A stretch of 64,000 nt of DNA from Myxococcota bacterium (GCA_965250285.1 OZ252299.1:5472001-5536000); one strand, 5' to 3'. Counted from the stretch's first letter, positions 18,073-63,615 are shown. Program-made: numbers and translations. The notes: a model not told the origin generated them from the letters alone.

Positions 18073-18090
18073 GTCGTGAAGAGGAGCTCC

Positions 18091-18636
18091 GTGACGATCT
18101 CAGAGTTGGGCGCACTTGGGGAGTTCCTCGGCTCCATCCTCACGCTTGCAACCCTTGCGTATCTGGCGATTCAGATCCGGCAGAATACCGCTCAGCAGAA
18201 GCGCGAAGTGCTTATCTCGATCCAGCACGGCCAGAACGCCGTTGTCGCTCAGCTGCTGGATCCGAGCGTCATGGGCGCGTTCGTGCGCGGAGCTGCTGGC
18301 AAAGATCCATCGATCGAAGACCGTGCAACAGCGCAGAACTGGGTGCTTCAGTACCTGAATCACTTCCAGATCATCCACGATCTCCATCGGAACCGAGCGC
18401 TGGACGAAGAGCAGTACCAGCTGTGGGCTGGCTTCGCGGTAGCCATGATCGCGCCTGCCCGTGTTCGCAAGTGGTGGGAAGAGGAAGACGGTCGGTTTGC
18501 GTTCCATTCTGAGGTCCGCGAGATGATCGACGAGCGACTCCGCGATATCGAGAACCCGCCTCGCCCGATCACGGAGATGTGGAGCACGTTCGATCCCAAT
18601 CCGTGGGAGGCAGACTCGGGCGTGCGCGGCGCGTGA
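18091..18636 (+). CDS. Single-TM protein, 'TL.YLA.QIR' family (10 paralogues in window)
   Basis: ELGALGEFLGSILTLATLAYLAIQIRQN. Confidence 0.85.
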   Translation: MTISELGALGEFLGSILTLATLAYLAIQIRQNTAQQKREVLISIQHGQNAVVAQLLDPSVMGAFVRGAAGKDPSIEDRATAQNWVLQYLNHFQIIHDLHRNRALDEEQYQLWAGFAVAMIAPARVRKWWEEEDGRFAFHSEVREMIDERLRDIENPPRPITEMWSTFDPNPWEADSGVRGA

Positions 18637-18658
18637 TCTATCGACTCGGCGCCACACC

Positions 18659-18792
18659 GCCCAACAAGGCGTAGCAGCCGACCGTCGACGGCCTGGTTCG
18701 ATTGATCTTCTTTGCCATCTGGCGGCATACTTGTGTGGCCGGATCGGATCCGGTCAGCGCTGTCGCTGGCCGCTGAACGCCAACCACTGCGC
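18659..18792 (+). repeat. Degenerate attC (R' lost)
   Basis: GCCCAAC...CCGCTGAACGCC then no GTT. Confidence 0.75.
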
Positions 18793-18818
18793 AGCGCGAA
18801 TAGGGCATTCGGTCGAAC

Positions 18819-19343
18819 GTGACGTTGTCAGACCTAGCAGCGATCGGCGAGGCCGTCGGCGGGGCGGCGGTCCTCATCACGCTTGGCTACCTCGCGTATC
18901 AGTTTCGGCAGACGGCCGCGATCGAGCGAACGGCCGGCCAGAGAGACCTTCTCAGTCGATGCAGATCGTGGGTTGAGCTTACGATCACCCACGACGGGCT
19001 CTTCGAGACGCTCTGCAAGGTCCTCGCTGACTGGGAATCGGCCACCCCGGCAGAGAGAGAACGCGTCAATGCGTGGGCGCTATCCGCCGCGCTGCAAGCC
19101 GAGCAGGCGCTCTACATGCGAAGGGAAGGTCTCATCAACGAGGCCTCCTATCGCGGCTTCGTCAACGTCGCGGTTTCCATCGCTGCGACTCCGGGCGGGC
19201 GGCACTGGTGGAAGAACGCACGAATCGCGCTGGGCGACGATATCTCTGACTTGATCGACCTCGAGCTCGAATCGCGGCCGACGGATGCGCTCGACTGGAC
19301 GCAGATCTTCTCTCATTGGTCCGAGGAGTCGTCTTTCTCGTGA
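18819..19343 (+). CDS. 'TL.YLA.QIR' family protein
   Basis: DLAAIGEAVGG..TLGYLAYQFRQ; TPGGRHWW. Confidence 0.85.
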   Translation: MTLSDLAAIGEAVGGAAVLITLGYLAYQFRQTAAIERTAGQRDLLSRCRSWVELTITHDGLFETLCKVLADWESATPAERERVNAWALSAALQAEQALYMRREGLINEASYRGFVNVAVSIAATPGGRHWWKNARIALGDDISDLIDLELESRPTDALDWTQIFSHWSEESSFS

Positions 19344-19365
19344 GCCACCCCATTACCATGCACCG

Positions 19366-19494
19366 CATGCCGCGCGGTCGGAGCAGATGTGGCAACGCCT
19401 GTGGCCTTCGGCTGGTGGTACACTTTCTGAGTCCAAGGCTTTGGCCGTCGTCGTGCAAGGTCGCGCCACGCCGCTGAACGCCGATTCGTCAGGC
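19366..19494 (+). repeat. Degenerate class B attC (R' = GTCAGGC)
   Basis: TGTGGCAACG...GCCACGCCGCTGAACGCCGA; TGGTACACT retained. Confidence 0.8.
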
Positions 19495-19501
19495 CGCGCG
19501 A

Positions 19502-20296
19502 ATGGCTGCCCGATCGATCCCAGCCGAGCGACGATTCACCTTCGACGAGATCCCTGATCTGTACGATCGGGTTCGGCCCGGCTATCCCGAATCACTCTGC
19601 GACGATCTCGTCGCGATCTCCGGGCTTCCAGCCGGCGGTCGAGTTCTCGAGATCGGCTGTGGGACCGGTCAGTTGACGGTTCCCCTCGCCGAGCGGGGCT
19701 ACTCGATCCTGTGTCTCGAACCCGGTCCTGCGATCGCTGCGTTCGCACGGCAGAAGCTCGAAGCCTTCCCGCGTGTCGAAGTCGTCGAGTCGACGTTCGA
19801 GGCGTGGCCCAGCGAACCCGGCGCCTTCGACCTGGTGGTGTCCGCTCAGGCGTTCCACTGGGTCGAGCCAGAGGTGGGCTTTGCCAAGGCCGCCGAGGCC
19901 CTGACCCGCTCGGGCGTGCTCGCGGTCGTCGGCAATGCACATGGCTCGGAGCGATCGTCGATCGATGATGCCGTCGATGCAGTCTACGCGCGACATGCGC
20001 CGACTCTGTCTGGCCCGCCGGTGACACGCTGGTACGCAGAGGGGGGGCCGGTGGCCGAGCTCTTCTCGTCTTCGGGCCACTTCCAGCCGGTCGAACGTCG
20101 TCACTATCCGTGGTCGGAATCGTACTCGGCCGACGACTACTGCGATCTTCTGCGGACACACTCCGATCATCGGCTTCTCCCTCGAGATCAGCGAGAATCC
20201 TTGCTGCGCGCCCTCTCCGAGGTGATCTCGAGTCACGGAGGCACGATCGACGTCGAGTACACCGCGAATCTCTACGCAGCGGCGCGCGCGGCCTGA
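19502..20296 (+). CDS. Class I SAM-dependent methyltransferase
   Basis: YDRVRPGYP, VLEIGCGTG, FDLVVSAQAFHW. Confidence 0.9.
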   Translation: MAARSIPAERRFTFDEIPDLYDRVRPGYPESLCDDLVAISGLPAGGRVLEIGCGTGQLTVPLAERGYSILCLEPGPAIAAFARQKLEAFPRVEVVESTFEAWPSEPGAFDLVVSAQAFHWVEPEVGFAKAAEALTRSGVLAVVGNAHGSERSSIDDAVDAVYARHAPTLSGPPVTRWYAEGGPVAELFSSSGHFQPVERRHYPWSESYSADDYCDLLRTHSDHRLLPRDQRESLLRALSEVISSHGGTIDVEYTANLYAAARAA

Positions 20297-20431
20297 CCAG
20301 CGGTGGCCGCGGGTGTGGCTCCGGGGCTGCGATCACGCGCGTGGTAGAGTCTCGAATTCTCGGGTGTCAGCAGCCCCGGTGCCCGGTGGCGCCACGCCGC
20401 TGAACGCCGACCGTCAGGCAGAAGCTCAAAG

Positions 20432-20896
20432 ATGAACTGGGATGCAGTCGGCGCAATCGCAGAGCTCGCAGGGGCCATCGCGGTCTTCGCCTCGTTGGCC
20501 TACCTCGCCGTCCAGATTCGCCAGAACACGAAGTCCTCGCGCGAAGCGACGTATCAGGCGATCGTCGGCGATCTCCAGCAGTTTCGGTTGGCGATTGCGC
20601 AGGATCCCGACATATCGCGCCTCTACCGACAGGGTCTGAAGGATCTGGATGCGCTCTCAGAGGAAGACCAATGGCGTTTCGGCGCGTTGATGCAGACGCT
20701 CTACTCGGTCTTCGAGTCGCAGTATCGCGCTCGCAACCACGAGATCTTCAGTCAGGTGCTCGCCGACATGGCGTGGATCGCCGGCCGGCCCGGCGCGCGG
20801 CAGTGGTGGGGGAAGGCGAAGCGAGTGTTCGACCCCGAGTTCGTTCGCTTCGTCGATGCATCGATTGATGATGCACCGCAGCCAGACTCTGCTTGA
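20432..20896 (+). CDS. 'TL.YLA.QIR' family protein
   Basis: NWDAVGAIAE..SLAYLAVQIRQN; RPGARQWW. Confidence 0.85.
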   Translation: MNWDAVGAIAELAGAIAVFASLAYLAVQIRQNTKSSREATYQAIVGDLQQFRLAIAQDPDISRLYRQGLKDLDALSEEDQWRFGALMQTLYSVFESQYRARNHEIFSQVLADMAWIAGRPGARQWWGKAKRVFDPEFVRFVDASIDDAPQPDSA

Positions 20897-21131
20897 TCTG
20901 CGCTGTCGTCGGAGCGCGCGTGGTAGAATCACGGCTTCGAAGGCGTGAGCACGCATTGCGGCGAGCCGCCGCAAGCCGCCGAGCGCCCACCGCTCGAAGG
21001 CGACAGCGGAGGTCGAGACGATCGTCGACTATCCCTACCGATTTCGCTTCAGATGGGCTCGTGGCCCGGGGTCGACCGGTCCAGTCGAGCTCGGCGACCT
21101 GAGAGGCCTGATCGTCAGTGCGGGCATCGCC

Positions 21132-21455: not shown

Positions 21456-21654
21456 GACGAGTCGACGTGTGCCCTCGCGAAGGCCATGGCAGTGAGCTTG
21501 CACCTGCGAAGGGGGGCCGGATCATTGAAGCTTGGCCGGCGTTCATGCCATTCGGTCGCCGCGCGCTGACCTGTTGCGCAGCAGCGAGACCCGAAGCCCT
21601 GAGCGTCGAAAACCGCTGCACGCGCAGCGCAGCCACAGGGAGAGGTCGCAGGTT

Positions 21655-22005: not shown

Positions 22006-22164
22006 CGAGCCGCCCATGAAGCCGCCGCAGCAGAGTCGCAACCGCTGAGGCGAGGCCAGGCCGTGGTAGCATGCCTGTTTTCCAAGGCGCTCAGCCGCTG
22101 CGAGCCAGTCTGCCGCACGATGCTGAGCGCCGACTGCTAGGCAGCAGCCGCGGAGTCTCAACGG

Positions 22165-22557
22165 GTGAAGACGGTTGCCCGATTCAGAGATCCGTGGGAG
22201 GCGCACCTTGCGCGAGGCCTGCTAGAAGCCGAGTCAATCGAGGCATTCGTCTTCGATGAGACTGTGATCGGCATCGACTGGCGGTACTCGAACGCGCTCG
22301 GCGGTGCTCGAGTCGCGGTTGCTCGAGCCGATGAAGAGGCTGCTCTCGAGCTGCTTCGGGCCCCGCTCGCAGCGCCAGCCGAGCAAGAGCCGTGTCCAGC
22401 GTGCTCTTCTCTCGACGTGACGCTCAGCCGATACTCCCTCTGGTCGCTGGTGCCCTCTCTCTTGTTCGGCGTGCCGTTCTTCTTTCCGCGCAAGCACTGG
22501 CAGTGCGCCAGCTGTGGGCACAGGTGGGGTCGAGGCCACAAGCAAGTCGACGCCTGA
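22165..22557 (+). CDS. DUF2007 domain protein with zinc ribbon
   Basis: EAHLARGLLEAESIEAFVFDE; CPAC...CASC. Confidence 0.8.
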   Translation: MKTVARFRDPWEAHLARGLLEAESIEAFVFDETVIGIDWRYSNALGGARVAVARADEEAALELLRAPLAAPAEQEPCPACSSLDVTLSRYSLWSLVPSLLFGVPFFFPRKHWQCASCGHRWGRGHKQVDA

Positions 22558-22709
22558 CCGGCTCTCGCAGCGAACGTGACACCGCTTCTGTCGGATCGGT
22601 CGTGGTAGGCTGGCTGTTGTCAGGGTGTCGAGGGTGTTCGGGGTGTTCAGCACCGCGGTGCGAGGTCGCGCCACGCTGCTGAAGGCCGAGCGCGAAGGGG
22701 CGGGCGGCA

Positions 22710-23159
22710 TTGCAGTTCACATCCCCGAAACGTCGCCAGCTGCTCAAGCGTGCCGTGACGACCGTCGACGGCCTTCTTGGTCTCGCCGTGGGGGTGCTGC
22801 TCGTCTACTCACTCAGTGAATGGGCGCCAAACTCGGGTGTCATTGTCTCGAGCTTGGCCATGGCCGTTCTCATCCCGGTCGTCACGACCGTCTGGCTTGC
22901 TGCCTTTAGCCCTCACTCGACTGAAAGGATCGAGGTCGGTGAGCATGCGATCAGCTTCAACTCGTACGGTGACGTGATCAGTATCCCGTGGTCTGCTCTC
23001 TCATCGGTGGGCTCGTCGAAGGGTCTCTCTCGGAGCGTGAAGTTCAGCTCGCTCGAGACGTCAGGCTTCTCGGTTTCACAGTGGTCGTTCTCTTCAGAAA
23101 TCTGGGCCGCATTGCTTCGCGAGATCTCTCTGCGAGCCCCGCACGTCACGGCCACCTGA
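22710..23159 (+). CDS. Membrane protein
   Basis: Two TMs; TGA in ACCTGAC R''-like remnant. Confidence 0.7.
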   Translation: MQFTSPKRRQLLKRAVTTVDGLLGLAVGVLLVYSLSEWAPNSGVIVSSLAMAVLIPVVTTVWLAAFSPHSTERIEVGEHAISFNSYGDVISIPWSALSSVGSSKGLSRSVKFSSLETSGFSVSQWSFSSEIWAALLREISLRAPHVTAT

Positions 23160-23286
23160 CGAACCATCGCAGCAGATGCGTTGTCGATCTGGGTGAGTCG
23201 GGTCATGGTCAAGCTGAGAAGTCAGAGGCGTTGTCAGTGGCTGTGCCAGGTCGGCGCAAGCCACTGAACGCCGACCGCTGGGTGGC

Positions 23287-23784
23287 GTGATGGGCGCTCG
23301 AATCGCTCGCGTACTTGCTTGGGTCATAGTCTCAGCTCTCGCACTGCTCACGAGTTGTGCTCTTGTCCCCGTCGCGCTCTTCTCGATCTTCGGTCAGTCC
23401 GAAGTCGTCAGAGTCCCCTCGCCCAATGGTCGCGTCGACGCGGTTCTCGTCGAAACCAACGGCGGTGCGACCACCTCGTTCGGATATCGAGTGATCCTGA
23501 CACGTCACGATTGGCATTGGCGCACGGGGCGCGAGACCGCGAGCTTGTACGGAGCGGTCCGCTCTGAGAACGCATATGGGGCCAATCTCGAATGGCAAGA
23601 CGAGAATTCCCTGTCGGTGCTCTACCTGAGGGCACGGCGGGCGACTGAGCGGGAGCACCCGACGACCATTGCAGGACGAACCGTCACGACGACGCTCCGT
23701 GCAGGTGTCTCGGACCCGACGGCTCCCTCGGGTGGCATGCTCTACAACCTCGAGGGGCGTCCGCATGACGAGCGGAGCGAATGA
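23287..23784 (+). CDS. Exported hypothetical protein
   Basis: SPNGRVDAVLVETNGGATTSFGY. Confidence 0.8.
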   Translation: MMGARIARVLAWVIVSALALLTSCALVPVALFSIFGQSEVVRVPSPNGRVDAVLVETNGGATTSFGYRVILTRHDWHWRTGRETASLYGAVRSENAYGANLEWQDENSLSVLYLRARRATEREHPTTIAGRTVTTTLRAGVSDPTAPSGGMLYNLEGRPHDERSE

Positions 23785-23910
23785 GGGCAGCCGCCTTGCT
23801 TCCGCCGAGGCGATGTCGGCTCGTGTTAGTCTCCCGAGTGTTCGAGGCGTAGGGCCGCCGTGGGCGAGGGCGCCGCGAGTGGGTGATCGCCCACCGCCAG
23901 GTCGCCAGAG

Positions 23911-24333
23911 TTGAACTGGGACCAGATCGAAGCGATTCGAAGGTACGCCGAGAACGCGACGCCTGAAGAGCGGCGCGAGCTCGCCGCTGCGCTGCTCGAA
24001 ATCGACGACGGCGGAAAGCGGGTTGGCTACACCCCGCTATCGCCCGGCACGGTTTGGCTGAGCCGCGCCGCGAGCGTTCCGGCTCTCGCCGCGAATGCGT
24101 ACCTGCTCTCCGGCGTCGCAGTGCATCCACTTCGGATCATCGTGGCCCACGCGTTGCCGCTCTTGTTGGTCTGGTATCCGAACCAGTTCTCGAGCGCCGT
24201 CGGGCACCTCACTCTCTCGAGCTACATCGACCGACCCTCGTCGCCCCGCATCGTGCTGGGCTTGTCGTGGGTCTGGCTGTGTTGGCCCCTGTTGATGTTC
24301 CTCGCACGACTCGTTCGCACCTTCTCGACTTGA
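23911..24333 (+). CDS. Membrane protein
   Basis: ORF between remnants. Confidence 0.7.
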   Translation: MNWDQIEAIRRYAENATPEERRELAAALLEIDDGGKRVGYTPLSPGTVWLSRAASVPALAANAYLLSGVAVHPLRIIVAHALPLLLVWYPNQFSSAVGHLTLSSYIDRPSSPRIVLGLSWVWLCWPLLMFLARLVRTFST

Positions 24334-24490
24334 TGCGCCGTTGCAGCCGAGTTGCGCTCGCTGAGGCGAGATCGCGTCGTGGTAGACTGCCGCCTTCTCG
24401 ATGCGCTCAGACGCTGCGAACCAGGTCGCTTCACGCCGCCGAGCGCCAACCGCTCAACGGGCAGTGGCTTCGAGAACCGCTATGAGAGGC

Positions 24491-25159: not shown

Positions 25160-25673
25160 GCTCGGTTTCGCATGTGACTCGATCGCGTGCTGAAGCAGAG
25201 TGACCCGCCCGAGCAGCCGTCTCATCGAATCAGCGATCGGTCGTTTCGATTCGATCTGGCTGCGAGTGGCCCCAGACTCTCTCGGGCTGGGGCAGGACAG
25301 GTCGTCGCGTTTTGCTTCGCCCTGACCGCCGGTCGTTGAGCGGTATGGACGAAGCCGAGACAGAAAGAGTCGAGGGAAACCCGTGGGCGTGGCTCGGTGC
25401 CGGGGCCTTCGCGCGTGGATCGGGCCTCTTCTGTCTCTACGTCGAATCAGTCGCCGAGATCATCTCCGCACAGCCGCTGACGTAGCCGTGACGAGCCACT
25501 CGACGACATGCGGAAGCGGGCGAGCACACCACGGCTTCGATTGACCTCGGGTGCCGACTGGGGCGATACTTGATTTTCAGGATCGGGGCCGGTCAGCGCT
25601 GTGGCGGGCCGCCGAACGCCGATTCGTCGAGCCCCGCCCGTCTTCGCGGGCAGTGGATGAAGAAGTCGAGACC

Positions 25674-26099: not shown

Positions 26100-26271
26100 T
26101 CGGGTACGGCCCTCTTGGCGGCGGGGAACCCGGCCGGTGGGCTCGCCGATTGCGCTTCGACATCGAGCGCATCGGTCGGGGGTCGGGTTTCGAGAACCGA
26201 GGCGTCGCCGGCTGCCGTGCCACGTCGGCTCGAGCCGCTGGGCGCCGGTGCATCATGCGGCAGGGCCCTCC

Positions 26272-26751
26272 ATGAACTGGGAAGCTGTGGGTGCGATCGC
26301 CGAGCTGCTCGGCGCGCTCGGTGTCATCGCGACACTCGTCTATCTCGCGCGACAGATCAGCGTGAACACGTCCACGGTGCGTGCGTCGGCCGCAGCGTCT
26401 CTGTCCGAAGCGAACACGGGCCTGTCGGCGCTGTTGGCTCAAGATGCCGAAGTCAACCGCCTCTTCTGGAGCTGTCTCACGGATCGAGACAGCCTCTCGG
26501 AACCAGAGAAGCTTCGATCGGATGCCATCATCGCGACCTTCCTCGGCGTGATCGAGCAGTCTCACGACTTCTACGCCGAAGGCGCGATCACGGACGAGAA
26601 GCGCGAAGCGCGCGAGCTGCAGCTCGCCTGGCTGGTGACGCAGCCCGGGTTCTCGGCCTTCTGGGACGCGTACGGTCCGACGTACGCTCGGTCGTTTGCA
26701 GCGCTCGTCGAGCGAGCGCAACAGAGCGGGCCACGGGCGTCCGCCTCGTGA
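26272..26751 (+). CDS. 'TL.YLA.QIR' family protein
   Basis: NWEAVGAIAE..TLVYLARQI; QPGFSAFW. Confidence 0.85.
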   Translation: MNWEAVGAIAELLGALGVIATLVYLARQISVNTSTVRASAAASLSEANTGLSALLAQDAEVNRLFWSCLTDRDSLSEPEKLRSDAIIATFLGVIEQSHDFYAEGAITDEKREARELQLAWLVTQPGFSAFWDAYGPTYARSFAALVERAQQSGPRASAS

Positions 26752-54596: not shown

Positions 54597-55094
54597 ATGA
54601 ATGAAGTCGAGATCTGGGTCGAGAAGCAGAAGATTCACGAGCTCTGCGCGCGCTACACGCTCACCATCGATCGGCACGACATCGATGGTTGGGTCGATTG
54701 CTTCACCGAGGACGGTGTTTTCGGCTTCGGCGATCACGCGCTCAAGGGCCGGGAGAAGATCGCGACCTATGGCCGGGTGCATGCCCGAATCGGTTCGCGT
54801 CACCTGAACACGTCGCTGGTGTTCGAGCTCGATGCGAGCGGTGAGCGCGCGCGCGGTGAATCGACGACGGTCGTCGTGTTCATGACGCCCGAGGGCTATC
54901 GCGTCGCTTTTCTCGGGCGCTATGAGGACGAGGTCGTCAAGATCGACGGCGAATGGCGGTTCGCGCGTCGGTGGGTCGTGGCCGACGAGGTGCCCGACGA
55001 TCCGACCTTCGACATGCTGACCGCCGACCCAGCGCTGGCGCCCGTGGTGCAGCAGCTGCTCGACGCGTACGCGACAGAGGGTAAAGTCGAGTAG
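54597..55094 (+). CDS. SnoaL-like (NTF2) protein
   Basis: ID......W.DCFTEDG, GRYEDE...DGEWRF. Confidence 0.85.
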   Translation: MNEVEIWVEKQKIHELCARYTLTIDRHDIDGWVDCFTEDGVFGFGDHALKGREKIATYGRVHARIGSRHLNTSLVFELDASGERARGESTTVVVFMTPEGYRVAFLGRYEDEVVKIDGEWRFARRWVVADEVPDDPTFDMLTADPALAPVVQQLLDAYATEGKVE

Positions 55095-55158
55095 CGCGAA
55101 CTCGCGCGGGTCTCGCCGACGCGCGCGTTGTCGTCGACTGAACGTCTGATGCGCCTCG

Positions 55159-56733
55159 CTACTTCGAGGCTTCGGCCACGTACTTCGAGAGCTGCTCGAT
55201 CTGCTCGGGCGTGAGCGTGTGGTCGTAGGCGGGCATCGCGCCGACGCCCCCCGTGACCGCACTCTCGACGGTCGCGGCATCGGGCTTCAGGTCGTTCAGG
55301 TTGGGGCCGACGGCGCCCTGAGTGCCGGCGTCGGTCAGGGTGTGGCACACGCCGCAGGGGGGCTGGGCCGATTGGAAGATGTCGCGCCCGGCCTGGGCAT
55401 CGGCCGAGAGCGATGCCTTTGGCCGAGCGGCCGTTGGCTCTGCGGGCGGCGGCGCCGATTCGGCTGCGCTCGGTGATTCGGCGGTCGCACGCTCGGGCAG
55501 CTCGGCGACGAGATCGACGCGCAGCGCCGCGTCGAGCCAGCCGTTGTGGCCGTAGCCTCGCTCGTTCGGTTGGCTCGCGCGCGGTTGCACGTCGCCCCGG
55601 GCATCGGTCGCGCGTGAGGCGATCGTATACGTGCCCGGCTCGAGGTCGGTGGTATACGCGAACGTGCGCCACGCGTTGGGGCCGAGATCGGGGCCGACGA
55701 GCTCGGCCGACTGCCACGAGTCGCCTTCGTCGAGCGAGACGTCGACGCCCTGCACGCCGCGCTCCCCCGAGAGCGCGACGCCGTAGAACGTGACGCGGCC
55801 CGCGAGCGTCGGTGTGTCGTCGGCGCCCGGTCCGTTGATCCAGGATTTGACCGGCATGCGCCACATCGACGGCTGCGTCGGAGCGCCCGCTTCGCCGAGC
55901 GGTCGCATGCGATAGCCCGACTGCTGGATCTTGGCCGACGATTCGGTCGAGGTGGCTGCGATGCGGCGCACGTACTTGATGCTGTTGACGCCGTAGTACC
56001 CCGGCACGATGAGCCGCAGGGGGCCGCCATGCGTGAGCGGCAGCGGCTCGCCGTTCATCTCCCAGGCGAGCAGCGCGTCGTCGAGCGCCTTGTCGATCGG
56101 GATCGAACGCTCGACGACCAGGTCGTCGCGGTCGAGTCCGTCGGGTAGCGCTTCGCCCCCGGTCGACGTCAGGTACGGCTTGCCGCTCGTCACGCCGCCG
56201 AAGTGTTCGACCACCGTGCGCACGCGCACGCCTGTCCAGACTGCGCAGCCCGCCGCTCCCGTTCGCCACGGTGAGCCCGAAGGGTCGTGTTCGAAGAACG
56301 CGCGCCCGTTGCCCGAACACTGGAGCACCGCCCCCTCGGTGTCGATGCCGAGCCCCTTCAGCTCGGCCAGGGTGATCGAGCCGGGCTGGGCGACGCCCGC
56401 GACTTCGAGCGCCCATTCGTCGGGGTGCGCCAGGATGGTGTCGGACGGCATCGGCAGGTTGTTGCGAACGAAGAAGCGCGAGATCGGCGTGATGACGCTG
56501 CGGCCGATCTGCGAGCGGCGAACCTCGAGCGCCATCGGAGACCGGCTGTGCACGATGAAGGGCGCCGGGTCGAGCCCTCCGGGCCATCCCGACGTCGCGG
56601 GTGCCGCGGTCGACACCGTCGTCTGGTGGGCCGACGAGCCCGGCCGGCAGCCCGGCAGCGCGAGCGCTGCGCCCGTGGCGAGCATGGCCTGTAGAAACTG
56701 ACGTCGGCTTCGCGTGGGTCTTGCGACCTTCAT
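55159..56733 (-). CDS. Tat-exported sulfite oxidase-family molybdoenzyme fused to C-terminal cytochrome c
   Basis: SRRQFL; FFVRNN; LQCSGNGR; HGGPLRLIVPGYYG; CGVCH...MPAY. Confidence 0.9.
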   Translation of the reverse strand: MKVARPTRSRRQFLQAMLATGAALALPGCRPGSSAHQTTVSTAAPATSGWPGGLDPAPFIVHSRSPMALEVRRSQIGRSVITPISRFFVRNNLPMPSDTILAHPDEWALEVAGVAQPGSITLAELKGLGIDTEGAVLQCSGNGRAFFEHDPSGSPWRTGAAGCAVWTGVRVRTVVEHFGGVTSGKPYLTSTGGEALPDGLDRDDLVVERSIPIDKALDDALLAWEMNGEPLPLTHGGPLRLIVPGYYGVNSIKYVRRIAATSTESSAKIQQSGYRMRPLGEAGAPTQPSMWRMPVKSWINGPGADDTPTLAGRVTFYGVALSGERGVQGVDVSLDEGDSWQSAELVGPDLGPNAWRTFAYTTDLEPGTYTIASRATDARGDVQPRASQPNERGYGHNGWLDAALRVDLVAELPERATAESPSAAESAPPPAEPTAARPKASLSADAQAGRDIFQSAQPPCGVCHTLTDAGTQGAVGPNLNDLKPDAATVESAVTGGVGAMPAYDHTLTPEQIEQLSKYVAEASK

Positions 56734-57004
56734 CCGCGTTCCTCCATGCGAAAGCTTCGCATACACCGACGACGCATCCACGTGATCCGTTCCTCGGTTG
56801 CGGGCCGCCAAGCGTCGAGGTCGCGCATTGGACGCGCGCCCGCGCTGTCACGATCTGGGGGCAACCGACACAGGCCGAACCTGGTAGCCTTCCGACATCA
56901 TTCGATCTGGCTCGACGCGCCCGTTCAGGTCTGACGCGGGCGGGTGAGCGGCACGCTGTATGCCCGTGACATCGACGCGGGTCACACCGGCGAAGGAGTC
57001 TTCG

Positions 57005-57367
57005 ATGCTCGAACGCGTTCAAGGGCTGCCCGACCACGTGCTGGGCTTCTCGGCCAAGGGAAAGATCACGGCGTCGGACTACGAAGACACGCTCGTTCCC
57101 GCGATCGAAGCCGCGCTCGCGCAGGGTGGAAAGCTGCGCCTCTTCTACGAGATGGGTGCCGACTTCGAGGGCATCGAGATGGGAGCGGTGTGGGACGATG
57201 CCAAGGTCGGCGTGCGGCATCCCGCCGCCTGGGAGCGCGTTGCGCTCGTATCGGACGTCGAGTGGATCCGCGTCGTCGGCAAGGCCTTCGGCTTCGCGAT
57301 GCCCGGCCACGTACGGGTGTTCTCGAACGAAGAGGTCGACGCCGCCCGAAGCTGGATCGCCGAGTAG
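57005..57367 (+). CDS. STAS/SEC14 (SpoIIAA-like) protein
   Basis: GKITASDY, AVWDDAK, RVALVSD..W. Confidence 0.85.
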   Translation: MLERVQGLPDHVLGFSAKGKITASDYEDTLVPAIEAALAQGGKLRLFYEMGADFEGIEMGAVWDDAKVGVRHPAAWERVALVSDVEWIRVVGKAFGFAMPGHVRVFSNEEVDAARSWIAE

Positions 57368-57388
57368 GCGAGCTGGCAGAGGAGCCCC

Positions 57389-58078
57389 ATGCCCGACGCC
57401 GATCGCTCCGCGCAGCCCTATGAAGTCGAGTCGGTCGAGGTGATCGCCATGACGCCCGACCTGCGCGTCTCGGTCTTCACCCTGGCCGAGGGCCACGAGG
57501 TGCCGTGGCACGTGCACTCGAATGTCGTCGATACCTTCTATTGCTTGTCGGGTCGCATCTCGGTGCACCACGGGGCACGGCCGATCGTTCATCTGACCAA
57601 GGGCGAGTCGCACGCGGTGCCGGCCAGAACGCCCCATCGCGTCGAAGGCCCGGGGCGTTTTCTGCTCGTTCAGGGCATCGGTGCCTACGACTTCGTGCCG
57701 ACCGACGCGCCGAAGGCGGCTCGCGAGAGCGACGCGGATGTGCAGAACGATTCGAACCCCTTCGTGTGCGACATCGAGGCATTGACATCGGAGCAGCGTG
57801 AGCGACATGGCGCGCTGGCCCGACGGCTGCGTCCGCTGGTGCTCGAGTTCGTCGAGCTGGCCGGTGGCTACGCAGCCCGGTTCGATGCAGCGCCTGGGCG
57901 CCTGGCCGAGGTCGCCGAGTTCATGGAGCTCGAGCGCCTCTGTTGTCCGTTCTTCGTGCTCGAGCTGAAGGCCGAAGCCCCTGTCGAAGCGCAGGCCGGT
58001 GGGCTCAGCCTCATCGTGACCGGGCCCGAGGGCGTGAAGCCGTTCATTCGGGCCGAGTTCGCGATCCCCGGGGCGTAG
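57389..58078 (+). CDS. Cupin domain fused to an 'ERLCCPFF' domain
   Basis: VPWHVH...PHRV; LERLCCPFF. Confidence 0.75.
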   Translation: MPDADRSAQPYEVESVEVIAMTPDLRVSVFTLAEGHEVPWHVHSNVVDTFYCLSGRISVHHGARPIVHLTKGESHAVPARTPHRVEGPGRFLLVQGIGAYDFVPTDAPKAARESDADVQNDSNPFVCDIEALTSEQRERHGALARRLRPLVLEFVELAGGYAARFDAAPGRLAEVAEFMELERLCCPFFVLELKAEAPVEAQAGGLSLIVTGPEGVKPFIRAEFAIPGA

Positions 58079-58157
58079 CGCCGAGAGGGCAACCCACACC
58101 GAGGGCGACTCGCTCGACCGCCGCGGGTCGCATCGAAGAGGCGAAGGGGCTACCAGC

Positions 58158-58667
58158 GTGGAGCACCGAGACACACTGCTGACGATCGCCGAGATCGCGA
58201 TCGCCCTGGCGGGCTTTGCGAGCATCGTGAGTGTGATCGCCCAGCGCGCCGAAGCGTCGGCGCGCGTCGCCGACGCACATCGGCTGCGCCTCATGCTCGA
58301 GGTCGCGCTTCGAAATGCTGGCTTCGCTCTGCTGCCGTTGCCGCTGCTCTCGACGTCCGGGTCGGATCCGCTCCTGTGGCGGGCCGCGAGCGGGCTCTAT
58401 CTCGTGATCGCCCTGCTGCACGGTGTGATTCGGCTCAAGACGCAGCGCGAGGTCGGGCCGCGTTGGTTCACGCTCACCGCGCAGATCTGTCTGGCGGCCA
58501 CGGCGGTCTTCTGTGTCGCCAATGTGTTCGGCGTAGCGGGTGAGCGCGCCTTCTCTCTATATCTCGCAAGTCTGCTCGTCGGGCTCTCGGTGTCGGGGAC
58601 GGCATTCATCGCGGTCGCTGCGTCGGCCCTGGGCCTGGCGCAGCCGACGACGCGCCAGGCAGAGTGA
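58158..58667 (+). CDS. Membrane protein, 'E...A.AGF.G' family
   Basis: EIAIALAGFASIVSVI. Confidence 0.85.
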   Translation: MEHRDTLLTIAEIAIALAGFASIVSVIAQRAEASARVADAHRLRLMLEVALRNAGFALLPLPLLSTSGSDPLLWRAASGLYLVIALLHGVIRLKTQREVGPRWFTLTAQICLAATAVFCVANVFGVAGERAFSLYLASLLVGLSVSGTAFIAVAASALGLAQPTTRQAE

Positions 58668-58668
58668 C

Positions 58669-59022
58669 ATGCAGCTGCGAACCAAGCGCATCTACGAGGC
58701 GGCGAGCGGCGGGGACGGGGTGCGCATCCTCATCGACCGTCTCTGGCCGCGGGGCGTCTCGCGCGACGCCGCTGCCATCGACCTGTGGGCGAAGGATCTC
58801 GCGCCCTCGAGTGAGCTGAGAACGTGGTACCAGCACGATCACGCGAAGTGGCCCGAGTTTCGCAAGCGGTACTTCGCCGAGCTCGACGGGAACCGCGAGG
58901 CGGTGGCCGACGTCGTTTCGATGATCGGCGATGGGGTCGCGACGATCGTGTTCGGCTCGAAAGAGACGGTGAAGAACAATGCGAGCGCCTTTCGTGAATA
59001 CCTCGAGGGGTTCGAGCCGTGA
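58669..59022 (+). CDS. DUF488 (YeaO-like) protein
   Basis: KRIY, RILIDRLWPRG, APSSELR.W. Confidence 0.9.
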   Translation: MQLRTKRIYEAASGGDGVRILIDRLWPRGVSRDAAAIDLWAKDLAPSSELRTWYQHDHAKWPEFRKRYFAELDGNREAVADVVSMIGDGVATIVFGSKETVKNNASAFREYLEGFEP

Positions 59023-59326
59023 CGCGTCGGCGCTTGGCGCCGGCCGGGCTTCGTGGCTGCTCGTGGCCGCATGCCTGTCGTTTTCTGCCGGCTGTGCGGT
59101 GAACGAGCTCGCGCACTGGAAGCGGGCCGAAGCCGACTACCGAAGCTGTGTCGAGGCGTACCCGAGCGAGCCGTCGCGTTGTGCAACGTACAAGGCCGAA
59201 GCGGGGCGGGCGGTCGAGGCGTACGAGCGCGCGGCCGACACCGACCGTTCGGCGGCGTGCCCGCACACCTGGGGCACGTGCGCGCACGATCGAGGACCCG
59301 CCCCAGCCTCGGACCCCGGCTGCTAG
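58979..59326 (+). CDS. Possible small Cys-rich lipoprotein (start uncertain)
   Basis: FSAGC then helical Cys-containing segment. Confidence 0.4.
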   Translation: MRAPFVNTSRGSSRDASALGAGRASWLLVAACLSFSAGCAVNELAHWKRAEADYRSCVEAYPSEPSRCATYKAEAGRAVEAYERAADTDRSAACPHTWGTCAHDRGPAPASDPGC

Positions 59327-59398
59327 CGGCGCGGCTCGAAGCGCGCGCGTGGTAGAGTCGACGGCGCTCGACCTGAAGGCAAGAGAGGCCGTCGTGTC

Positions 59399-60067
59399 AT
59401 GACCAAGGTACTGCTGACCGGCTACGAACCCTTCGGCACGACCCCGATCAATCCTGCCGAGCTCGTAGCGCGAGCGCTCGACGGCGAGACCATCGCCGAC
59501 GCGAAGGTGGTGTCGCGCATTCTGCCGAGCACGTTCTTCGAATCGATCGAGACGGTGGCCGCCGCGATCGAAGCCGAATCGCCCGACCTCGTGATCATGA
59601 TGGGTGAGTACGGCGGCCGCGCCACGATCACCGTCGAGCGCATCGCCCAGAACTTCAACGACTCGACGCGCTACGGGCTCGTCGACAATCGCGGCAAATC
59701 GATGCAGGACGAGCCGACCGTGCCTGGTGGTCCGGCCGCGTACTACGCGACGCTCCCGATTCGCGCGATGGTCAAGGCGATGCGCGAGGCCGGTGTGCCG
59801 GCCGACATCTCCGACGCGCCGGGCACGTTCTGCTGCAACCACCTGATGTACGGGATCCTTCACGTCATCTCGGATCGTGCGCTCGACATCCGGGCAGGCT
59901 GGATCCACCTGCCTCATCTGCCCGAGGTGGCTGCGCTGCCCGACAATCTCGGTGCGCCGAGCATGTCGGCCCAGACGGCGACAAAGGGGGTGCGAGTCGG
60001 GATCGAAGCGGCGCTGACCCACGCGCACGACATCACGGATCCGATCTCGTCGAGGCTTCAGATCTGA
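59399..60067 (+). CDS. pcp: Pyroglutamyl-peptidase I
   Basis: LLTGYEPFG...NP, ERIA.N, GTFCCN, IHLP. Confidence 0.93.
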   Translation: MTKVLLTGYEPFGTTPINPAELVARALDGETIADAKVVSRILPSTFFESIETVAAAIEAESPDLVIMMGEYGGRATITVERIAQNFNDSTRYGLVDNRGKSMQDEPTVPGGPAAYYATLPIRAMVKAMREAGVPADISDAPGTFCCNHLMYGILHVISDRALDIRAGWIHLPHLPEVAALPDNLGAPSMSAQTATKGVRVGIEAALTHAHDITDPISSRLQI

Positions 60068-60092
60068 CGCTCGTGTGGGTCACGAGGAGCCC

Positions 60093-60542
60093 TCAGCGCA
60101 AGACCGCACGCCTCCATTCTTCGGGCGGCACGTCGCGCAGATGCTCGAGGAAGCTCCAGCGGTGCCCCTCGAGATCGAGCGCTTCGTAGCGCCGATCGCC
60201 CCACGGTTGATCTTCGAGCGGCATGACGATCTGGGCCCCTGCGGCTTCGGCCCGGGTGCAGTGACCGGTGACATCGTCGACATAGGCGACGACCATCTGC
60301 GTGCGTGCCTCGAGCGTGGCCGGGCTCTGCAGATCATGCCCGCCGGCGCGGCCGACGATCACGATCCCGCTGCCGAGCTGCATTTCGGTCAGGATCACGT
60401 CGCCTTGGTCGGTTGCGACCCGCGCATCGGCCCGTTCGATGAAGCCGAAGGCCTGCGTGAGCCAGGCGATGGCGCCGGCGGCGTCGCGGTAGGCCAGACG
60501 GGGAAGGATCTGCGGAGTGCCTCGCGGTGGGTTGCTCACCAT
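60093..60542 (-). CDS. VOC/glyoxalase family protein
   Basis: AIAWL..AFGF, DQPWGDR.Y...DLEGHRW. Confidence 0.88.
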   Translation of the reverse strand: MVSNPPRGTPQILPRLAYRDAAGAIAWLTQAFGFIERADARVATDQGDVILTEMQLGSGIVIVGRAGGHDLQSPATLEARTQMVVAYVDDVTGHCTRAEAAGAQIVMPLEDQPWGDRRYEALDLEGHRWSFLEHLRDVPPEEWRRAVLR

Positions 60543-60747
60543 GCGTTCGCCTCCCGATGTGCCAATGGATCGCGCGCCGTGGAGCGCTCGTCGCGCACGA
60601 CCTCAGCGGCTGGTCTGCGCACGCGACGCACCGCATACTAGCCACGGCCGAACGCGATCGGTGCCGCCTCGCCGTGTCGTTCGACGCCATCGACCGATGC
60701 ACGAGCAAACGGGCCGACGCGATGGCCCGTAGCGAGGTGATCCCCCC

Positions 60748-61038
60748 ATGGATCTCAAGCTCTTCGCCACCGTCTTCGCGACGGTGTTCGTCGCCGAGCT
60801 CGGCGACAAGACGCAGCTCGCGACGCTGCTGTACGCATCCGACGGCGCGAACTCGCGGTGGACCGTCTTCGCGGCCTCGGCGATGGCGCTCGTGCTCGCC
60901 TCGGCCCTCGGCGTGCTGGCCGGATCGCTGGTCGCGCAGTTCGTGCATCCGATGGCGCTGCGCTGGATCGCGGGGCTCGGTTTCGTCGCCGTGGGCATCT
61001 GGGTGATCGTGAGCGGCGACGGTGCGACGGTCTCTTGA
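60748..61038 (+). CDS. TMEM165/GDT1 (UPF0016) family protein
   Basis: AELGDKTQ. Confidence 0.92.
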   Translation: MDLKLFATVFATVFVAELGDKTQLATLLYASDGANSRWTVFAASAMALVLASALGVLAGSLVAQFVHPMALRWIAGLGFVAVGIWVIVSGDGATVS

Positions 61039-61120
61039 GACGCCTCGCCCGGGCGCGTGAAGTCACGCTCCCTGGCGACGAGGCCGCTGCGGGGCGAGAC
61101 AGAGAGGAAGTGAACGCGCG

Positions 61121-61612
61121 ATGACTCTTCAAGATCTCGGCAGCGTGGGCGAGCTCGTCGCGGCCCTCGCCACGGTCGCAACCCTTGCGTATCTCGCGCT
61201 GCAGATTCGGCAGAACACCGTACAGCTGCGCGACAACGCACGGGCGATCCGCTTGAGCGAGGTGCGCGCGGCGGCCGACGGTGAGATCGACTTTCGGCGC
61301 CTGCTGCTGACCGACCCGGAGGTCGACGATGTGTTCGATCGCGGCGTGCGGGGCGAACCGCTCGACTCGACGAGCGCTCGCCGATTCGGACATGCCCTGC
61401 TCGAGTACAGCCTGAGGTCGCAGGGTCGTTGGTATCTGGTGCAGCAGTCGATCTTGTCGCAGGCCTACTGGGAGCGCGTCTCTTCGTTCCACCTCGACTT
61501 CTTGAGCCAGGCGCTGGCCCGGCAGTGGTGGGCCGAGAACCGGTATCGATTCGATCCACGATTCGTCGAGGATCTCGATCGTCGCCTCGCCGAACGCGAC
61601 GCGTCGAGCTGA
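61121..61612 (+). CDS. 'TL.YLA.QIR' family protein
   Basis: TLQDLGSVGELVAALATVATLAYLALQIRQN. Confidence 0.88.
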   Translation: MTLQDLGSVGELVAALATVATLAYLALQIRQNTVQLRDNARAIRLSEVRAAADGEIDFRRLLLTDPEVDDVFDRGVRGEPLDSTSARRFGHALLEYSLRSQGRWYLVQQSILSQAYWERVSSFHLDFLSQALARQWWAENRYRFDPRFVEDLDRRLAERDASS

Positions 61613-61733
61613 CGAAGTCGATCGGGCGCCCGAGTCGAACGCCGTCGCGCGAATCGAAACCGGAGCGTCGCCCCGAATCCCATCGCTCGCCGGCAGCCGA
61701 ATCGCAGAACCCACGAGAGAAGGAGTCGAGCCG

Positions 61734-62141
61734 ATGCGCGGAAGCTGTCTGTGTGGGGCCGTTCGCTACCGACTGAACGCTGAGCCCCAGTGGGCGCACA
61801 ACTGCCACTGCTCGCGATGCCGAAAGGCGACCGGGGCGAGCTTCGCTTCGAATCTCTTCGTGTCGCTGGATGCGCTCGAGTTCACGGAAGGCGAGGACCT
61901 CGTCCGTTCGTACAAGCCACCCGAAGCGGAGCGGTTCACGCACGCGTTCTGCGAGATCTGCGGCGGCGGCCTGCCGTTTCGCAACGAGGCGCGAGGACGC
62001 GCGGTGGTGCCGATGGGTAGCCTCGACGACGATCCTGGTCTCGCACCGAAGGCCCACATCTTCGTCGAGTCGCGGGCGCCGTGGCACGAGATCATCGACG
62101 ATCTCCCGCGGCACCCCGAGGCGCTCGGCTCGGGCAGGTAG
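61734..62141 (+). CDS. GFA family protein
   Basis: GSCLCG, CHCSRCRK, FCEICG. Confidence 0.9.
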   Translation: MRGSCLCGAVRYRLNAEPQWAHNCHCSRCRKATGASFASNLFVSLDALEFTEGEDLVRSYKPPEAERFTHAFCEICGGGLPFRNEARGRAVVPMGSLDDDPGLAPKAHIFVESRAPWHEIIDDLPRHPEALGSGR

Positions 62142-62169
62142 CGGGCCTCTCCACGATCCGCGGTGCCAG

Positions 62170-62287
62170 GGCCGGGGCAGGCGGGGGCACCGTGCTCAGA
62201 CATTCTCGGCGCGACCCACCAGGGAAGTTCGTATGGTGCGCCCGTCGCGCCTGCGAACTGCGCGCGGTCCCCCCGCCTGCCCCGGCC
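62170..62287. repeat. 18-bp perfect inverted repeat with nested hairpin
   Basis: GGCCGGGGCAGGCGGGGG / CCCCCGCCTGCCCCGGCC. Confidence 0.8.
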
Positions 62288-62547
62288 TCGGGACGCTTCC
62301 GTTTCACCGCCGCACTCTCCGTCAGGAAGCGCTCGCGGCGAGTGGCCTAGCCCTTCCGCTTCCACGCCTCACCCTCGAACGTCTAGCGGGAAGCCATCGA
62401 GTTCAGCGCCCAGAGCTGTTCTCGCATGCGGGGAGTGAGGTCTGCAGAGCATCCCTAGCGGGGTCGCATGCTCTAATCCACCCTTCGGTTTGGACGGTGC
62501 GCAGCTTGGTCGAGCGCGGCCATCGACTCGCCCGGGAGCCGGCGCGC

Positions 62548-62979
62548 ATGGAAGAGGGCAAGCGGATCTATCGAGGAGTGCCCGAGTCGGCTCGTGCGCT
62601 GCAGGACTATCTCGAGCAGCACGGTGTCGAGTCGGTTCTCGAGAGCCATGAAGAGATCGGGGTGCGCAGCCGTACGCGGATGCTGGCGCGGCAGGACGTG
62701 ATCGTGGGGGCCGAGCATCGCGCGCGCGCCGAAACCCTGCGCGATCAGTGGCAGACGTCTACGGCGCTACGGGCGCGCGGGTTGTCGCGTCGCGCGGCCG
62801 GCGTGATCATGGGCAGCCTCATCCCGGTGGGCGTGTGGTTCGTGTGCGAGCGCCTCGCTCTGGACGGCGTGCCCGAGTTCACACTCGAGCGAGGGATCGG
62901 CGTCTGGTTCGTGACGGTGGTCGTGCTCGGACAGATCGAATCGCAACGCCGGGCGGCCGAACGCATCGAGATGCCGTGA
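62548..62979 (+). CDS. Membrane-associated hypothetical protein
   Basis: ATG with GGGAG upstream; two C-terminal TMs. Confidence 0.7.
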   Translation: MEEGKRIYRGVPESARALQDYLEQHGVESVLESHEEIGVRSRTRMLARQDVIVGAEHRARAETLRDQWQTSTALRARGLSRRAAGVIMGSLIPVGVWFVCERLALDGVPEFTLERGIGVWFVTVVVLGQIESQRRAAERIEMP

Positions 62980-63048
62980 GCGGGCCGGGCGCGGCCGGGA
63001 GATGAAGCCACGGATACGCCGCTTCGCAAGATCCTGACGATCGGCAGC

Positions 63049-63471
63049 ATGGCGCTCGCGTTCGTCTTGCTGGGTGATGGGCTCGCCATGCTGCTGCCTG
63101 GCCCCACGAGCGCAGTCGGCGGGCTGGCGTTGATGCTCGTGGGGCTCATGTGGCTGGTCCTCGCCATGCCGCGCCTGCTCTCGACCGAGGGGCGGCCGTT
63201 CACGGCGATCCTCGTCGCGCGATTCGGGCTGCTCATGGTGCCGCCGCTGGGTGCCCTCATGGCCGGGATCTGGTGGCTCTCGACCCCCGAGGCGCTGTCG
63301 CGCTGGTTTGCCGTTGCGTGGGGCGTCGTCTGGGCGGGCTGTGTCGGGCTTTCGGCGGTCGTGCGTTGTCCGAGCTGCGGGCATCTCTTCAGTCGCCGGG
63401 GGCTTCGGTTCGAGGTTGCCTCGTCGTCATGTCCGCACTGTGGCGCGAACCCGCGAGGCGGGGTCGGGTAG
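63049..63471 (+). CDS. Membrane protein with C-terminal zinc ribbon
   Basis: CPSC...CPHC. Confidence 0.7.
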   Translation: MALAFVLLGDGLAMLLPGPTSAVGGLALMLVGLMWLVLAMPRLLSTEGRPFTAILVARFGLLMVPPLGALMAGIWWLSTPEALSRWFAVAWGVVWAGCVGLSAVVRCPSCGHLFSRRGLRFEVASSSCPHCGANPRGGVG

Positions 63472-63615
63472 ACGGCACCGATGGGGCCCGATAGCGAGAA
63501 GGCGGAGGGGGCCGCGTGGTAGCATCGCGGTGTCACGTCGCTGGCGAGCGCGCGACCAACCGAACGCTCGTTGGGTGATGTGAGCCCTCGCAACGTCCAG
63601 ATAAGGGCCAACGTC

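What the first reader, a model, noticed from the sequence alone, without database searches (positions are those of the whole stretch)
18073..63530. Cassette domestication gradient: recombination boxes decay but the promoter motif survives for 45 kb
Seen: after 18072 the R/L boxes erode stepwise. R' is lost at ~18790, GTT becomes GTC at 19488, 20413 and 27660, and arms are only fragmentary beyond ~35 kb. GTG(G/A/T)TAnnnT persists upstream of genes at about 19415, 20341, 20920, 22063, 22602, 23823, 24379, 26795, 27589, 28152, 29986, 30534, 31086, 32631, 33918, 35241, 37661, 38461, 41746, 42747, 44537, 46327, 53931, 59349 and 63516. Sequence looks more GC-rich distally, and content shifts from unknown membrane proteins to recognisable enzymes. 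Inference: selection keeps only the promoter part of old attCs, converting mobile cassettes into fixed, self-expressed chromosomal genes. This would be a continuous gene-domestication record that attC-model tools are likely to miss.
Basis: partly seen in the sequence, partly recalled or inferred. Interest (0 to 1): 0.9.

Follow-up and report, generated by a model that had tools for sequence, protein, structure and literature searches.

The report
Promoter-carrying integron sites leave fossil tail
In this bacterium every recombination site of a gene-capture array (integron) contains a likely promoter, and behind the working array lie 20 kb of broken sites, likely followed by a further 28 kb of the same origin, where the recombination signals have decayed but the likely promoter is mostly kept, which would turn captured mobile genes into fixed, expressed chromosomal genes.

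Summary
The window is the distal part of a chromosomal integron in a Myxococcota-like genome: an intact intI, then 49 intact attC sites ending at 18,072. All 25 motif coordinates are exact.

TGnTAnnnT looks like the host's extended -10 promoter (126 sense vs 3 antisense in tandem intergenic DNA; peak at leaderless spacing). It lies in the loop of 54 of 54 intact attCs. A second attC type carries a -35/-10 pair instead.

With the promoter columns masked, 22 attC relics are found from 18.6 to 37.7 kb. None keeps both R boxes; 16 keep a full promoter; promoter A/T columns are kept at 80% vs 58% (p=2e-4).

Beyond 38 kb attC homology is not detectable. There the case rests on motif excess (8 vs 0.3 expected), small co-oriented genes, and homologues in relatives' array tails. 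GC3 rises from 0.69 to 0.85.

Corrections: the R boxes are lost abruptly, not stepwise, and the promoter would serve the next gene downstream. Relatives show similar tails, but the column test there is mixed. No RNA data, so promoter activity is untested. I did not find this described.

The parts
1..18072 (+). Distal 35 of 49 intact attC sites and their cassettes; each attC (~130 bp) has TGnTAnnnT in its central loop. intI (G000 5,462,834-5,463,778, same strand) and the putative attI lie 8-9 kb upstream of the window
17943..18072 (+). Last intact attC; boundary of the mobile array; promoter motif at 17993
18659..18792 (+). First relic, second attC type: R'' kept, R' lost, -35/-10 pair TTGATC-N18-CATACT kept
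19365..19494 (+). Relic attC, both R boxes broken, extended -10 at 19415
20291..20419 (+). Relic attC, extended -10 at 20341; the R'' TAA stop has become TGA
20863..20995 (+). Relic attC, extended -10 at 20920
21473..21600 (+). Weak relic attC, promoter lost
   Evidence: 27 bits; control maximum 24.2
22012..22142 (+). Relic attC, extended -10 at 22063
22552..22698 (+). Relic attC, extended -10 at 22602
23154..23283 (+). Relic attC, -10 disrupted
23776..23898 (+). Relic attC, extended -10 at 23823
24332..24458 (+). Relic attC, extended -10 at 24379
25206..25335 (+). Relic of second type, promoter degenerate, in front of a 46-aa remnant
25498..25632 (+). Relic of second type, TTGACC-N18-GATACT kept, in front of a MAPEG gene
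26127..26247 (+). Relic attC, promoter lost
26744..26869 (+). Relic attC, extended -10 at 26795
27370..27666 (+). Two adjacent relics with no gene between: the first lost its promoter, the second keeps it at 27589
28102..28232 (+). Relic attC, extended -10 at 28152
28736..28861 (+). Relic attC, TAGAAT kept, TG extension lost
29936..30067 (+). Relic attC, extended -10 at 29986
30481..30612 (+). Relic attC, extended -10 at 30534
31086..33927 (+). Three motif-only sites (31086, 32631, 33918), flanks not significant
35191..35317 (+). Relic attC, extended -10 at 35241, in front of a gene 40% identical to an intact cassette
37609..37718 (+). Last independently detectable relic, extended -10 at 37661
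38000..64000 (+). Distal zone (continues to ~66.4 kb): small co-oriented genes; eight CGTGRTAnnnT sites at 38461, 41746, 42747, 44537, 46327, 53931, 59349, 63516; only 41746 keeps a significant attC left arm; likely the oldest part of the tail
52212..52721 (+). Distal gene 46-47% identical to the intact cassette at 2421-3032; no other copy in the genome
48096..50680 (-). Opposite-strand gene pair (ATP-grasp protein and neighbour) interrupting the tail; probably not cassette-derived
55159..56811 (-). Opposite-strand molybdopterin oxidoreductase/cytochrome c gene; probably not cassette-derived

Best explanation
This is a chromosomal integron whose attC sites each contain a likely promoter, followed by a tail of broken attC sites in which that likely promoter is kept more often than the rest of the site, so that old cassettes are predicted to stay expressed after they can no longer be excised. 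How it works: (1, shown) each intact attC folds as a canonical hairpin and carries TGnTAnnnT, or in one type TTGACC-N18-CATACT, in the loop beyond the L boxes, always on the cassette strand. (2, inferred) this fires across the right arm and GTT into the next cassette, so expression would not depend on distance from Pc; in an excised circle it would read into the cassette's own gene. (3, inferred from established attC x attC excision) a broken attC inside the array can still leave with its neighbours, but nothing beyond the last working attC can be excised, so each failure of the terminal site locks one more cassette: a ratchet that gives a sharp boundary and an age gradient. (4, shown statistically) locked sites drift towards GC and lose arm pairing while the -10 letters and stop codons persist, and genes approach host GC3. 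(5, inferred) beyond 38 kb only the promoter and the genes remain recognisable.
For: intI over family cut-off, no stops, same strand as array. attC stem 98% paired with compensatory changes. Motif in 54 of 54 intact sites; a promoter of either type in 105 of 110 attCs, 52 of 57 from 8 relatives, 12 of 16 sequence clusters, 0 on the antisense strand. Host-promoter behaviour: 126 vs 3 sense/antisense in 1,651 tandem spacers, final T in 125 of 184 vs 3 of 74; 17 of 84 genomic sites sit 16-17 nt before a start codon. Masked search: 22 relics, 0 with both R boxes, 16 with a full promoter. Promoter A/T columns 61/76 vs 192/331; 64/87 vs 217/457 when every block is masked alike, p=7e-6. Changes are mainly A>G (24 of 37) and T>C (27 of 43), with 0-2 compensated pairs of 11. 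Distal zone: motif 8 vs 0.26 expected; 7 of 11 TAnnnT-bearing spacers vs 38 of 700 genome-wide; C before the motif 8/8 vs 47/97; 70-115 nt from the start 6/8 vs 22/84; median gene 150 aa, smaller than all 5,061 other 45-gene windows; 11 of 42 genes have >=40% homologues in relatives' array-plus-tail regions vs 149 of 5,123. Relatives beyond their last relic, motif sense:antisense 14:0, 5:1, 6:0, 7:0, 3:1, 0:1, and 8:1 further on in G005. A 41.9 kb contig of run X1 matches 17,960-49,000 without a difference; one X3 contig skips two cassettes in GTT register.
Against: No transcript data. No full-length attC homology beyond 38 kb by four methods; 7 of 8 distal sites have non-significant flanks. 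The R''-type stop context is not enriched distally (RYY-stop-C 1 of 29). In relatives the exact-register column test is flat (71/100 vs 312/451; 50/97 vs 268/539) and is lower for the second type (37/56 vs 266/308); it is positive only with a 2-base shift allowed (78/97 vs 351/539, p=0.003), and not for the 9 A-type relics alone. Only 1 of 25 genes at 18-38 kb passed the 40% homologue filter. Homologues checked in G020 (of 52212) and in ten relatives (of 46402) had no attC near them. G016's array ends almost without a tail. Both R boxes are lost in 19 of 22, more than the ratchet alone predicts (p=0.005), which may be an alignment end effect or extra selection. The X3 joint is one contig from one study.
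Confidence: 0.75

Rival explanations
1. The tail is real to 38 kb, but 38-66 kb is an ordinary gene-acquisition hotspot whose small monocistronic genes use the host's normal extended -10 promoter; there is no attC ancestry there.
For: The motif is a host promoter found before 2.6% of genes. No arms are detectable. Stop-context test negative. Opposite-strand operons interrupt the zone. Other small-gene regions exist at 5.33, 1.18 and 4.69 Mb without relics. GC3 is flat beyond 38 kb (rho -0.11).
Against: The GTG subtype makes up 7 of 11 promoter-bearing spacers vs 38 of 700. attC-like context and spacing. The 41746 left arm. Gene 52212 pairs only with an intact cassette in this genome. The only homologue of 47769 among 40 relatives is in G005's tail. 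The other small-gene regions carry 0-3 GTG motifs per 45-50 kb.
Confidence: 0.2
2. The conserved loop motif is not a promoter but a binding site for a host or integron protein (or a structural feature), kept for another reason.
For: No RNA evidence; conservation in intact sites could reflect common descent of the attCs.
Against: It has the -10 pattern (fixed T, A, T with three free positions), genome-wide sense bias and leaderless spacing. A second attC type swaps it for a -35/-10 pair. It persists after recombination is lost.
Confidence: 0.1
3. The 18-38 kb sites are not aged in place but are an older or foreign array, captured or frozen in one step, so distance does not measure time.
For: Identity to consensus drops at once from 85-93% to 56-80% at the boundary; the later decline is noisy; the second attC type occurs in the tail but not in this genome's intact array.
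Against: Most relics belong to the same three subtypes as the intact array. Decay and GC3 still trend with distance inside 18-38 kb. Declining scores recur in G005, G020:C28 and the second locus. Promoter retention holds either way.
Confidence: 0.15
4. The decay is an assembly or consensus artefact.
For: The genome is a single-contig assembly with a repeat array.
Against: One 41.9 kb contig of run X1 is identical over 17,960-49,000 (X1 may be this DNA's source); X2 and X3 pieces differ at single positions. ORFs are mostly intact; relatives show the same pattern.
Confidence: 0.01

Closest known systems
Sedentary chromosomal integrons (Cury et al. 2016, PMC4889954; abstract end and passages seen)
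   Same: intI, GTT-based attC hairpins, more than 19 attC sites, GC-poor cassettes of unknown function.
   Different: That model has one Pc and 'cassettes rarely contain promoters'. Here each attC carries a likely promoter, and a long relic tail follows the array.
Treponema-type integrons with intI on the cassette strand (as stated in PMC11014356, passages seen)
   Same: [quoted passage not shown]
   Different: Promoters reported there are in gene-less cassettes, not in the attC.
Promoter cassettes and intra-array promoters of Vibrio (PMC11014356; PMC2945992; review PMC8876359; passages seen)
   Same: Distal cassettes are expressed without Pc. One sigma-70-type promoter bridges an attC in Vibrio DAT722, and some TSSs fall in attC.
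   Different: Those are scattered, diverse promoters, partly ascribed to AT-richness. Here one fixed element sits in all attCs of a 69% GC genome and across the order.
Cassette de-recruitment and stabilisation (Boucher et al. 2006, PMC1382264, passages seen; CALINs, PMC4889954; attG insertion, bioRxiv 10.1101/2022.09.11.507474, passages seen)
   Same: Cassettes become sedentary genes after loss of attC or integrase.
   Different: Described for single cassettes at secondary sites, needing a resident promoter, or for arrays that lost intI. Here it happens in place, serially, beside an intact integrase, with the promoter inherited from the attC.
Group IIC-attC introns with outward promoters (PMC3001079, search listing and abstract start only)
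   Same: A promoter at an attC position that drives downstream cassettes.
   Different: There the promoter comes from an inserted intron; here it lies within a ~130 bp attC.

Membership tests
Sedentary chromosomal integron | Integron integrase gene | tested here: met
   TIGR02249 439 bits (cut-off 265), no stops; catalytic motifs read by eye from the translation
Sedentary chromosomal integron | attC sites with R''/L''/L'/R' hairpin and extrahelical bases | tested here: met
   21 pairs, 98% paired, 25 compensatory cells, slid controls <=49%
Sedentary chromosomal integron | More than 19 attC sites (Cury criterion) | tested here: met
   49 intact (criterion)
Sedentary chromosomal integron | attI site and Pc promoter | tested here: inconclusive
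   GTTAGGC without a left arm ~200 nt after the intI stop, read from the sequence; Pc not identified
Sedentary chromosomal integron | Promoterless cassettes depending on Pc | tested here: not met
   Promoter-like element in 54 of 54 attCs; typical rather than strictly defining
Sedentary chromosomal integron | Active attC x attC excision | tested here: inconclusive
   One X3 contig joins 12762 to 13652 in GTT register
Functional attC (for the tail sites) | Intact AAC and GTT with paired arms | tested here: not met
   0 of 22 keep both; 2-8 of 11 pairs kept in the 19 A-type relics
CALIN | attC cluster with no integrase nearby | tested here: not met
   intI is contiguous with this array; the second cluster at G000 109-115 kb does fit
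Vibrio/Treponema promoter cassettes | Promoter in the body of a gene-less cassette | tested here: not met
   The element is inside the attC of gene-bearing cassettes too; the nine gene-less cassettes were not tested for their own promoters
Extended -10 sigma-70-type promoter | TGnTAnnnT, sense-biased upstream of genes, 6-7 nt before the TSS | tested here: met
   (spacing inferred from leaderless starts)
Extended -10 sigma-70-type promoter | Transcription starts there | not testable with these tools
   No RNA holder listed

The most novel reading that the evidence does not exclude
A whole bacterial order uses integrons whose recombination site doubles as a promoter, so arrays have no silent reserve, and the distal end works as a conveyor that turns captured cassettes into permanent, separately transcribed genes. 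The 48 kb tail here is a datable record of that, and small-gene islands elsewhere in the genome (5.33, 4.69, 1.18 Mb) are older, detached tails.
Probability: 0.5. Interest if true: 0.88.

Novelty: new variant of a known kind. Interest (0 to 1): 0.78.

Why it matters
The working model of integrons is promoterless cassettes ranked by distance from one promoter, with distal cassettes as a cheap silent store. A promoter built into attC removes that ranking and supplies a simple route from mobile cassette to fixed gene. The papers read propose such stabilisation but do not show it as a series. The tail gives an ordered set of intermediates for measuring amelioration, gene retention and promoter birth from a recombination site, and it implies that attC counts understate how much of a genome came through an integron (here up to ~48 kb behind a 26 kb array).

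Tried and rejected
Rfam: no hit. Full-length HMM, multi-type HMMs, masked profiles and a covariance model beyond 38 kb: nothing significant. Stop-codon context as a trace of R'' in distal genes: negative, except stop followed by C, 16 of 29 vs 948 of 2,952. Folding energy of relics: uninformative, z-scores scatter in this GC-rich DNA, and two of three intact sites folded into an alternative hairpin. Search for relics in the other intergenic DNA of the genome: only the 109-115 kb cluster. Homologues of 46402 in ten relatives and of 52212 in G020 and G035: no attC nearby, apart from one weak half-site. Synteny of the tail with the same-genus genome G001 (83% complete, 460 contigs): one shared tail gene (GDT1 family, 71%), which lies 11 kb behind five relics and has the motif 46 nt upstream, whereas core regions are syntenic. 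A crude attC finder on 80 IntI loci of other phyla recovered clusters in only 4 loci; the three credible ones lacked the extended -10, too few to set the range. RNA: no RNA holder listed. Atlas search of the 10-copy family: only unnamed or DUF4760/DUF6082-like clusters. My gene caller misses most low-GC cassettes, so array genes were taken from attC-to-attC frames; 4 of 93 candidate frames judged spurious were dropped before the Pfam scan. Literature: 9 searches; exact phrases for a promoter in attC gave 0 papers. Subscription papers and all supplements were not seen.


Full report
Setting. The window is G000:C1:5,472,001-5,536,000 of a 6.25 Mb, 68.6% GC, single-contig genome. The five RecA neighbours (of 120 listed) that name an organism, 85-87% identical, are labelled 'Myxococcota bacterium'. 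The closest IntI found (84%, L057) bears a submitter's label Spirochaetaceae, so the host assignment rests on RecA. An intact intI lies 8-9 kb upstream on the cassette strand. It is followed by a putative attI and 49 intact attCs over 26 kb, ending at window 18,072; five more lie at 109-111 kb. On 34 window copies the canonical hairpin is 98% paired with 25 compensatory cells.

The observation. All 25 motif positions are exact and all on +; the motif occurs 182 times in the genome, before 91 of 3,495 genes, against 11 of 23 at 18-38 kb and 8 of 31 at 38-66.5 kb. GC, GC3 and Pfam content shift as described.

Is the motif a promoter? Outside the arrays TGnTAnnnT occurs 126 times on the sense strand and 3 times antisense in 1,651 tandem spacers, while the same pattern with another last base is even (59 vs 71). 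Seventeen of 84 genomic GTG-type sites stand 16-17 nt before a start codon, the spacing of a leaderless transcript (the meaning of that spacing is from my own knowledge). In the attC alignment T, A and T are fixed while the three positions between vary. All 54 intact sites have the motif. Among 110 attCs from this genome and 8 relatives, 101 have it, 4 have TTGAC-N18/19-CAYACT instead, and none has either on the other strand; 12 of 16 sequence clusters carry one. Kin are not independent, and 79 of the 110 come from two clusters. Activity is untested; no RNA holder was listed.

The proximal tail. To avoid circularity I masked the promoter columns in 11 type profiles. Twenty-two relics score 27-103 bits from 18.6 to 37.7 kb; 250 control spacers reach at most 24.2 and a 60 kb control gives none. 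nhmmer and a covariance model agree on the extent. None of the 22 has both AAC and GTT and 19 lack both; 14 keep the extended -10, 2 keep the -35/-10 pair, 1 keeps TAGAAT only, 5 lost it. Two of those five precede a remnant or no gene. In the 19 A-type relics promoter A/T columns match in 61 of 76 against 192 of 331 for other invariant A/T columns, and R-box A/T columns in 30 of 76. With every 10-column block masked in turn the figures are 64 of 87 against 217 of 457. Changes are mostly A>G and T>C, pairs are rarely compensated, and the TAA inside R'' has become TGA or TAG while remaining the stop at seven relics checked. Identity to consensus falls from 0.80 to 0.57, noisily (rho -0.54), after an abrupt step from the 85-93% typical of intact sites.

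The distal zone. Beyond 38 kb no method finds arms, except a left arm at 41,746 and a weak one at 53,931. The indirect case: 8 motifs against 0.26 expected; the GTG subtype in 7 of 11 spacers with any TAnnnT against 38 of 700; attC-like context and spacing; the smallest median gene size in the genome, 87% on one strand; 11 of 42 genes with homologues of 40% or more in 407 kb of relatives' arrays and downstream DNA against 149 of 5,123. Gene 52212 pairs only with an intact cassette in this genome, 47769 only with a gene in G005's tail among 40 relatives, 38521 matches a gene between two attCs in G020. Against: the stop-context test fails, two minus-strand inserts interrupt the zone, and homologues of 46402 and 52212 elsewhere have no attC. 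I put attC ancestry for most of this zone at about 0.7.

Relatives. Sixteen of 41 genomes searched (this one included) match the attC and 18 have an IntI over cut-off. In six fetched arrays scores fall with distance, significantly in G005 and G020:C28, GC rises, and the motif stays in excess on the cassette strand past the last relic in five; G016 ends abruptly. G001 has five relics with broken or missing R boxes on one contig and shares one distal gene, behind the motif. The column test in relatives is flat in exact register, lower for the second type, and positive only with a 2-base shift; profiles there fit less well, so I count it as mixed.

Artefact and activity. One 41.9 kb contig of run X1, possibly this DNA's source, is identical from 17,960 to 49,000; X2 and X3 differ at isolated bases. 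One X3 contig skips two cassettes in GTT register, a hint that the array is polymorphic while the tail is not; other joints listed have short sides and are ignored.

Mechanism. The promoter points through the right arm into the next cassette, so each gene but the first would be transcribed from its neighbour's attC. Excision needs two working attCs (PMC4889954, passage; PMC8876359, passage), so DNA beyond the last one is trapped, and each failure of the terminal site adds a cassette to the tail. This explains the sharp boundary and the gradient; it is inferred. Afterwards selection would see only the gene and its -10. R boxes are lost more often than this alone predicts, which I leave open between an end-of-alignment effect and selection against residual recombination.

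Known work and verdict. Passages of six papers bearing on the question were read: PMC11014356, PMC4889954, PMC2945992, PMC8876359, PMC1382264, bioRxiv 2022.09.11.507474; passages of PMC3607928 and bioRxiv 2026.03.17.712381 added nothing. They describe scattered intra-array promoters, one promoter bridging an attC, de-recruitment at secondary sites and CALINs as a step to stabilisation. None of the passages describes a promoter fixed in all attCs or an in-place fossil tail, and nine searches found none; the library lacks most subscription papers and no supplements were read. Earlier scan notes held nothing on this locus or sequence and two loose analogues of promoter-bearing repeats. Verdict: a member of the sedentary chromosomal integrons, new variant; interest 0.78.

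Noticed in passing
window 2014, 3743, 4141, 11832, 14235 and four copies upstream of the window: A ~270 bp apparently gene-less cassette occurs nine times in the intact array, diverged between copies.
   Followed up: no
G000 108.8-115.5 kb: Second attC cluster without intI: five intact sites of the same type, then three relics, a miniature of the same pattern.
   Followed up: partly
window 18091, 18819, 20432, 26272, 28241, 32721, 33995, 38521, 53232, 61121: Ten diverged copies (23-43%) of one unnamed ~160-aa family lie in the tail against about four in the rest of the genome; relatives carry it between attC sites. It may be preferentially retained.
   Followed up: partly
G000 5.33-5.36 Mb, 4.68-4.70 Mb, 1.18-1.21 Mb: Other runs of small genes; the first two share homologues with relatives' array tails; no attC relics found.
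   Followed up: partly
window 12766-13654: Two cassettes are absent from one contig of run X3, joined in GTT register; one of them duplicates the cassette at 6395-6754.
   Followed up: partly
right arm of the main attC type, e.g. window 9983-10114: A 10-bp inverted repeat forms a hairpin that competes with the canonical attC fold and would lie in the 5' leader of the predicted transcript.
   Followed up: no
window 25345-25485, 27370-27537, 33740-33900, ~47235, 51020-51330: Gene remnants and a frameshift in the tail.
   Followed up: partly
window 62162-62305: A ~140 bp intergenic element with many 72-79% copies in G001; not identified.
   Followed up: no
genome-wide: About a fifth of GTG-type -10 sites (17 of 84) sit at leaderless spacing, suggesting common leaderless mRNAs in this lineage.
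   Followed up: no
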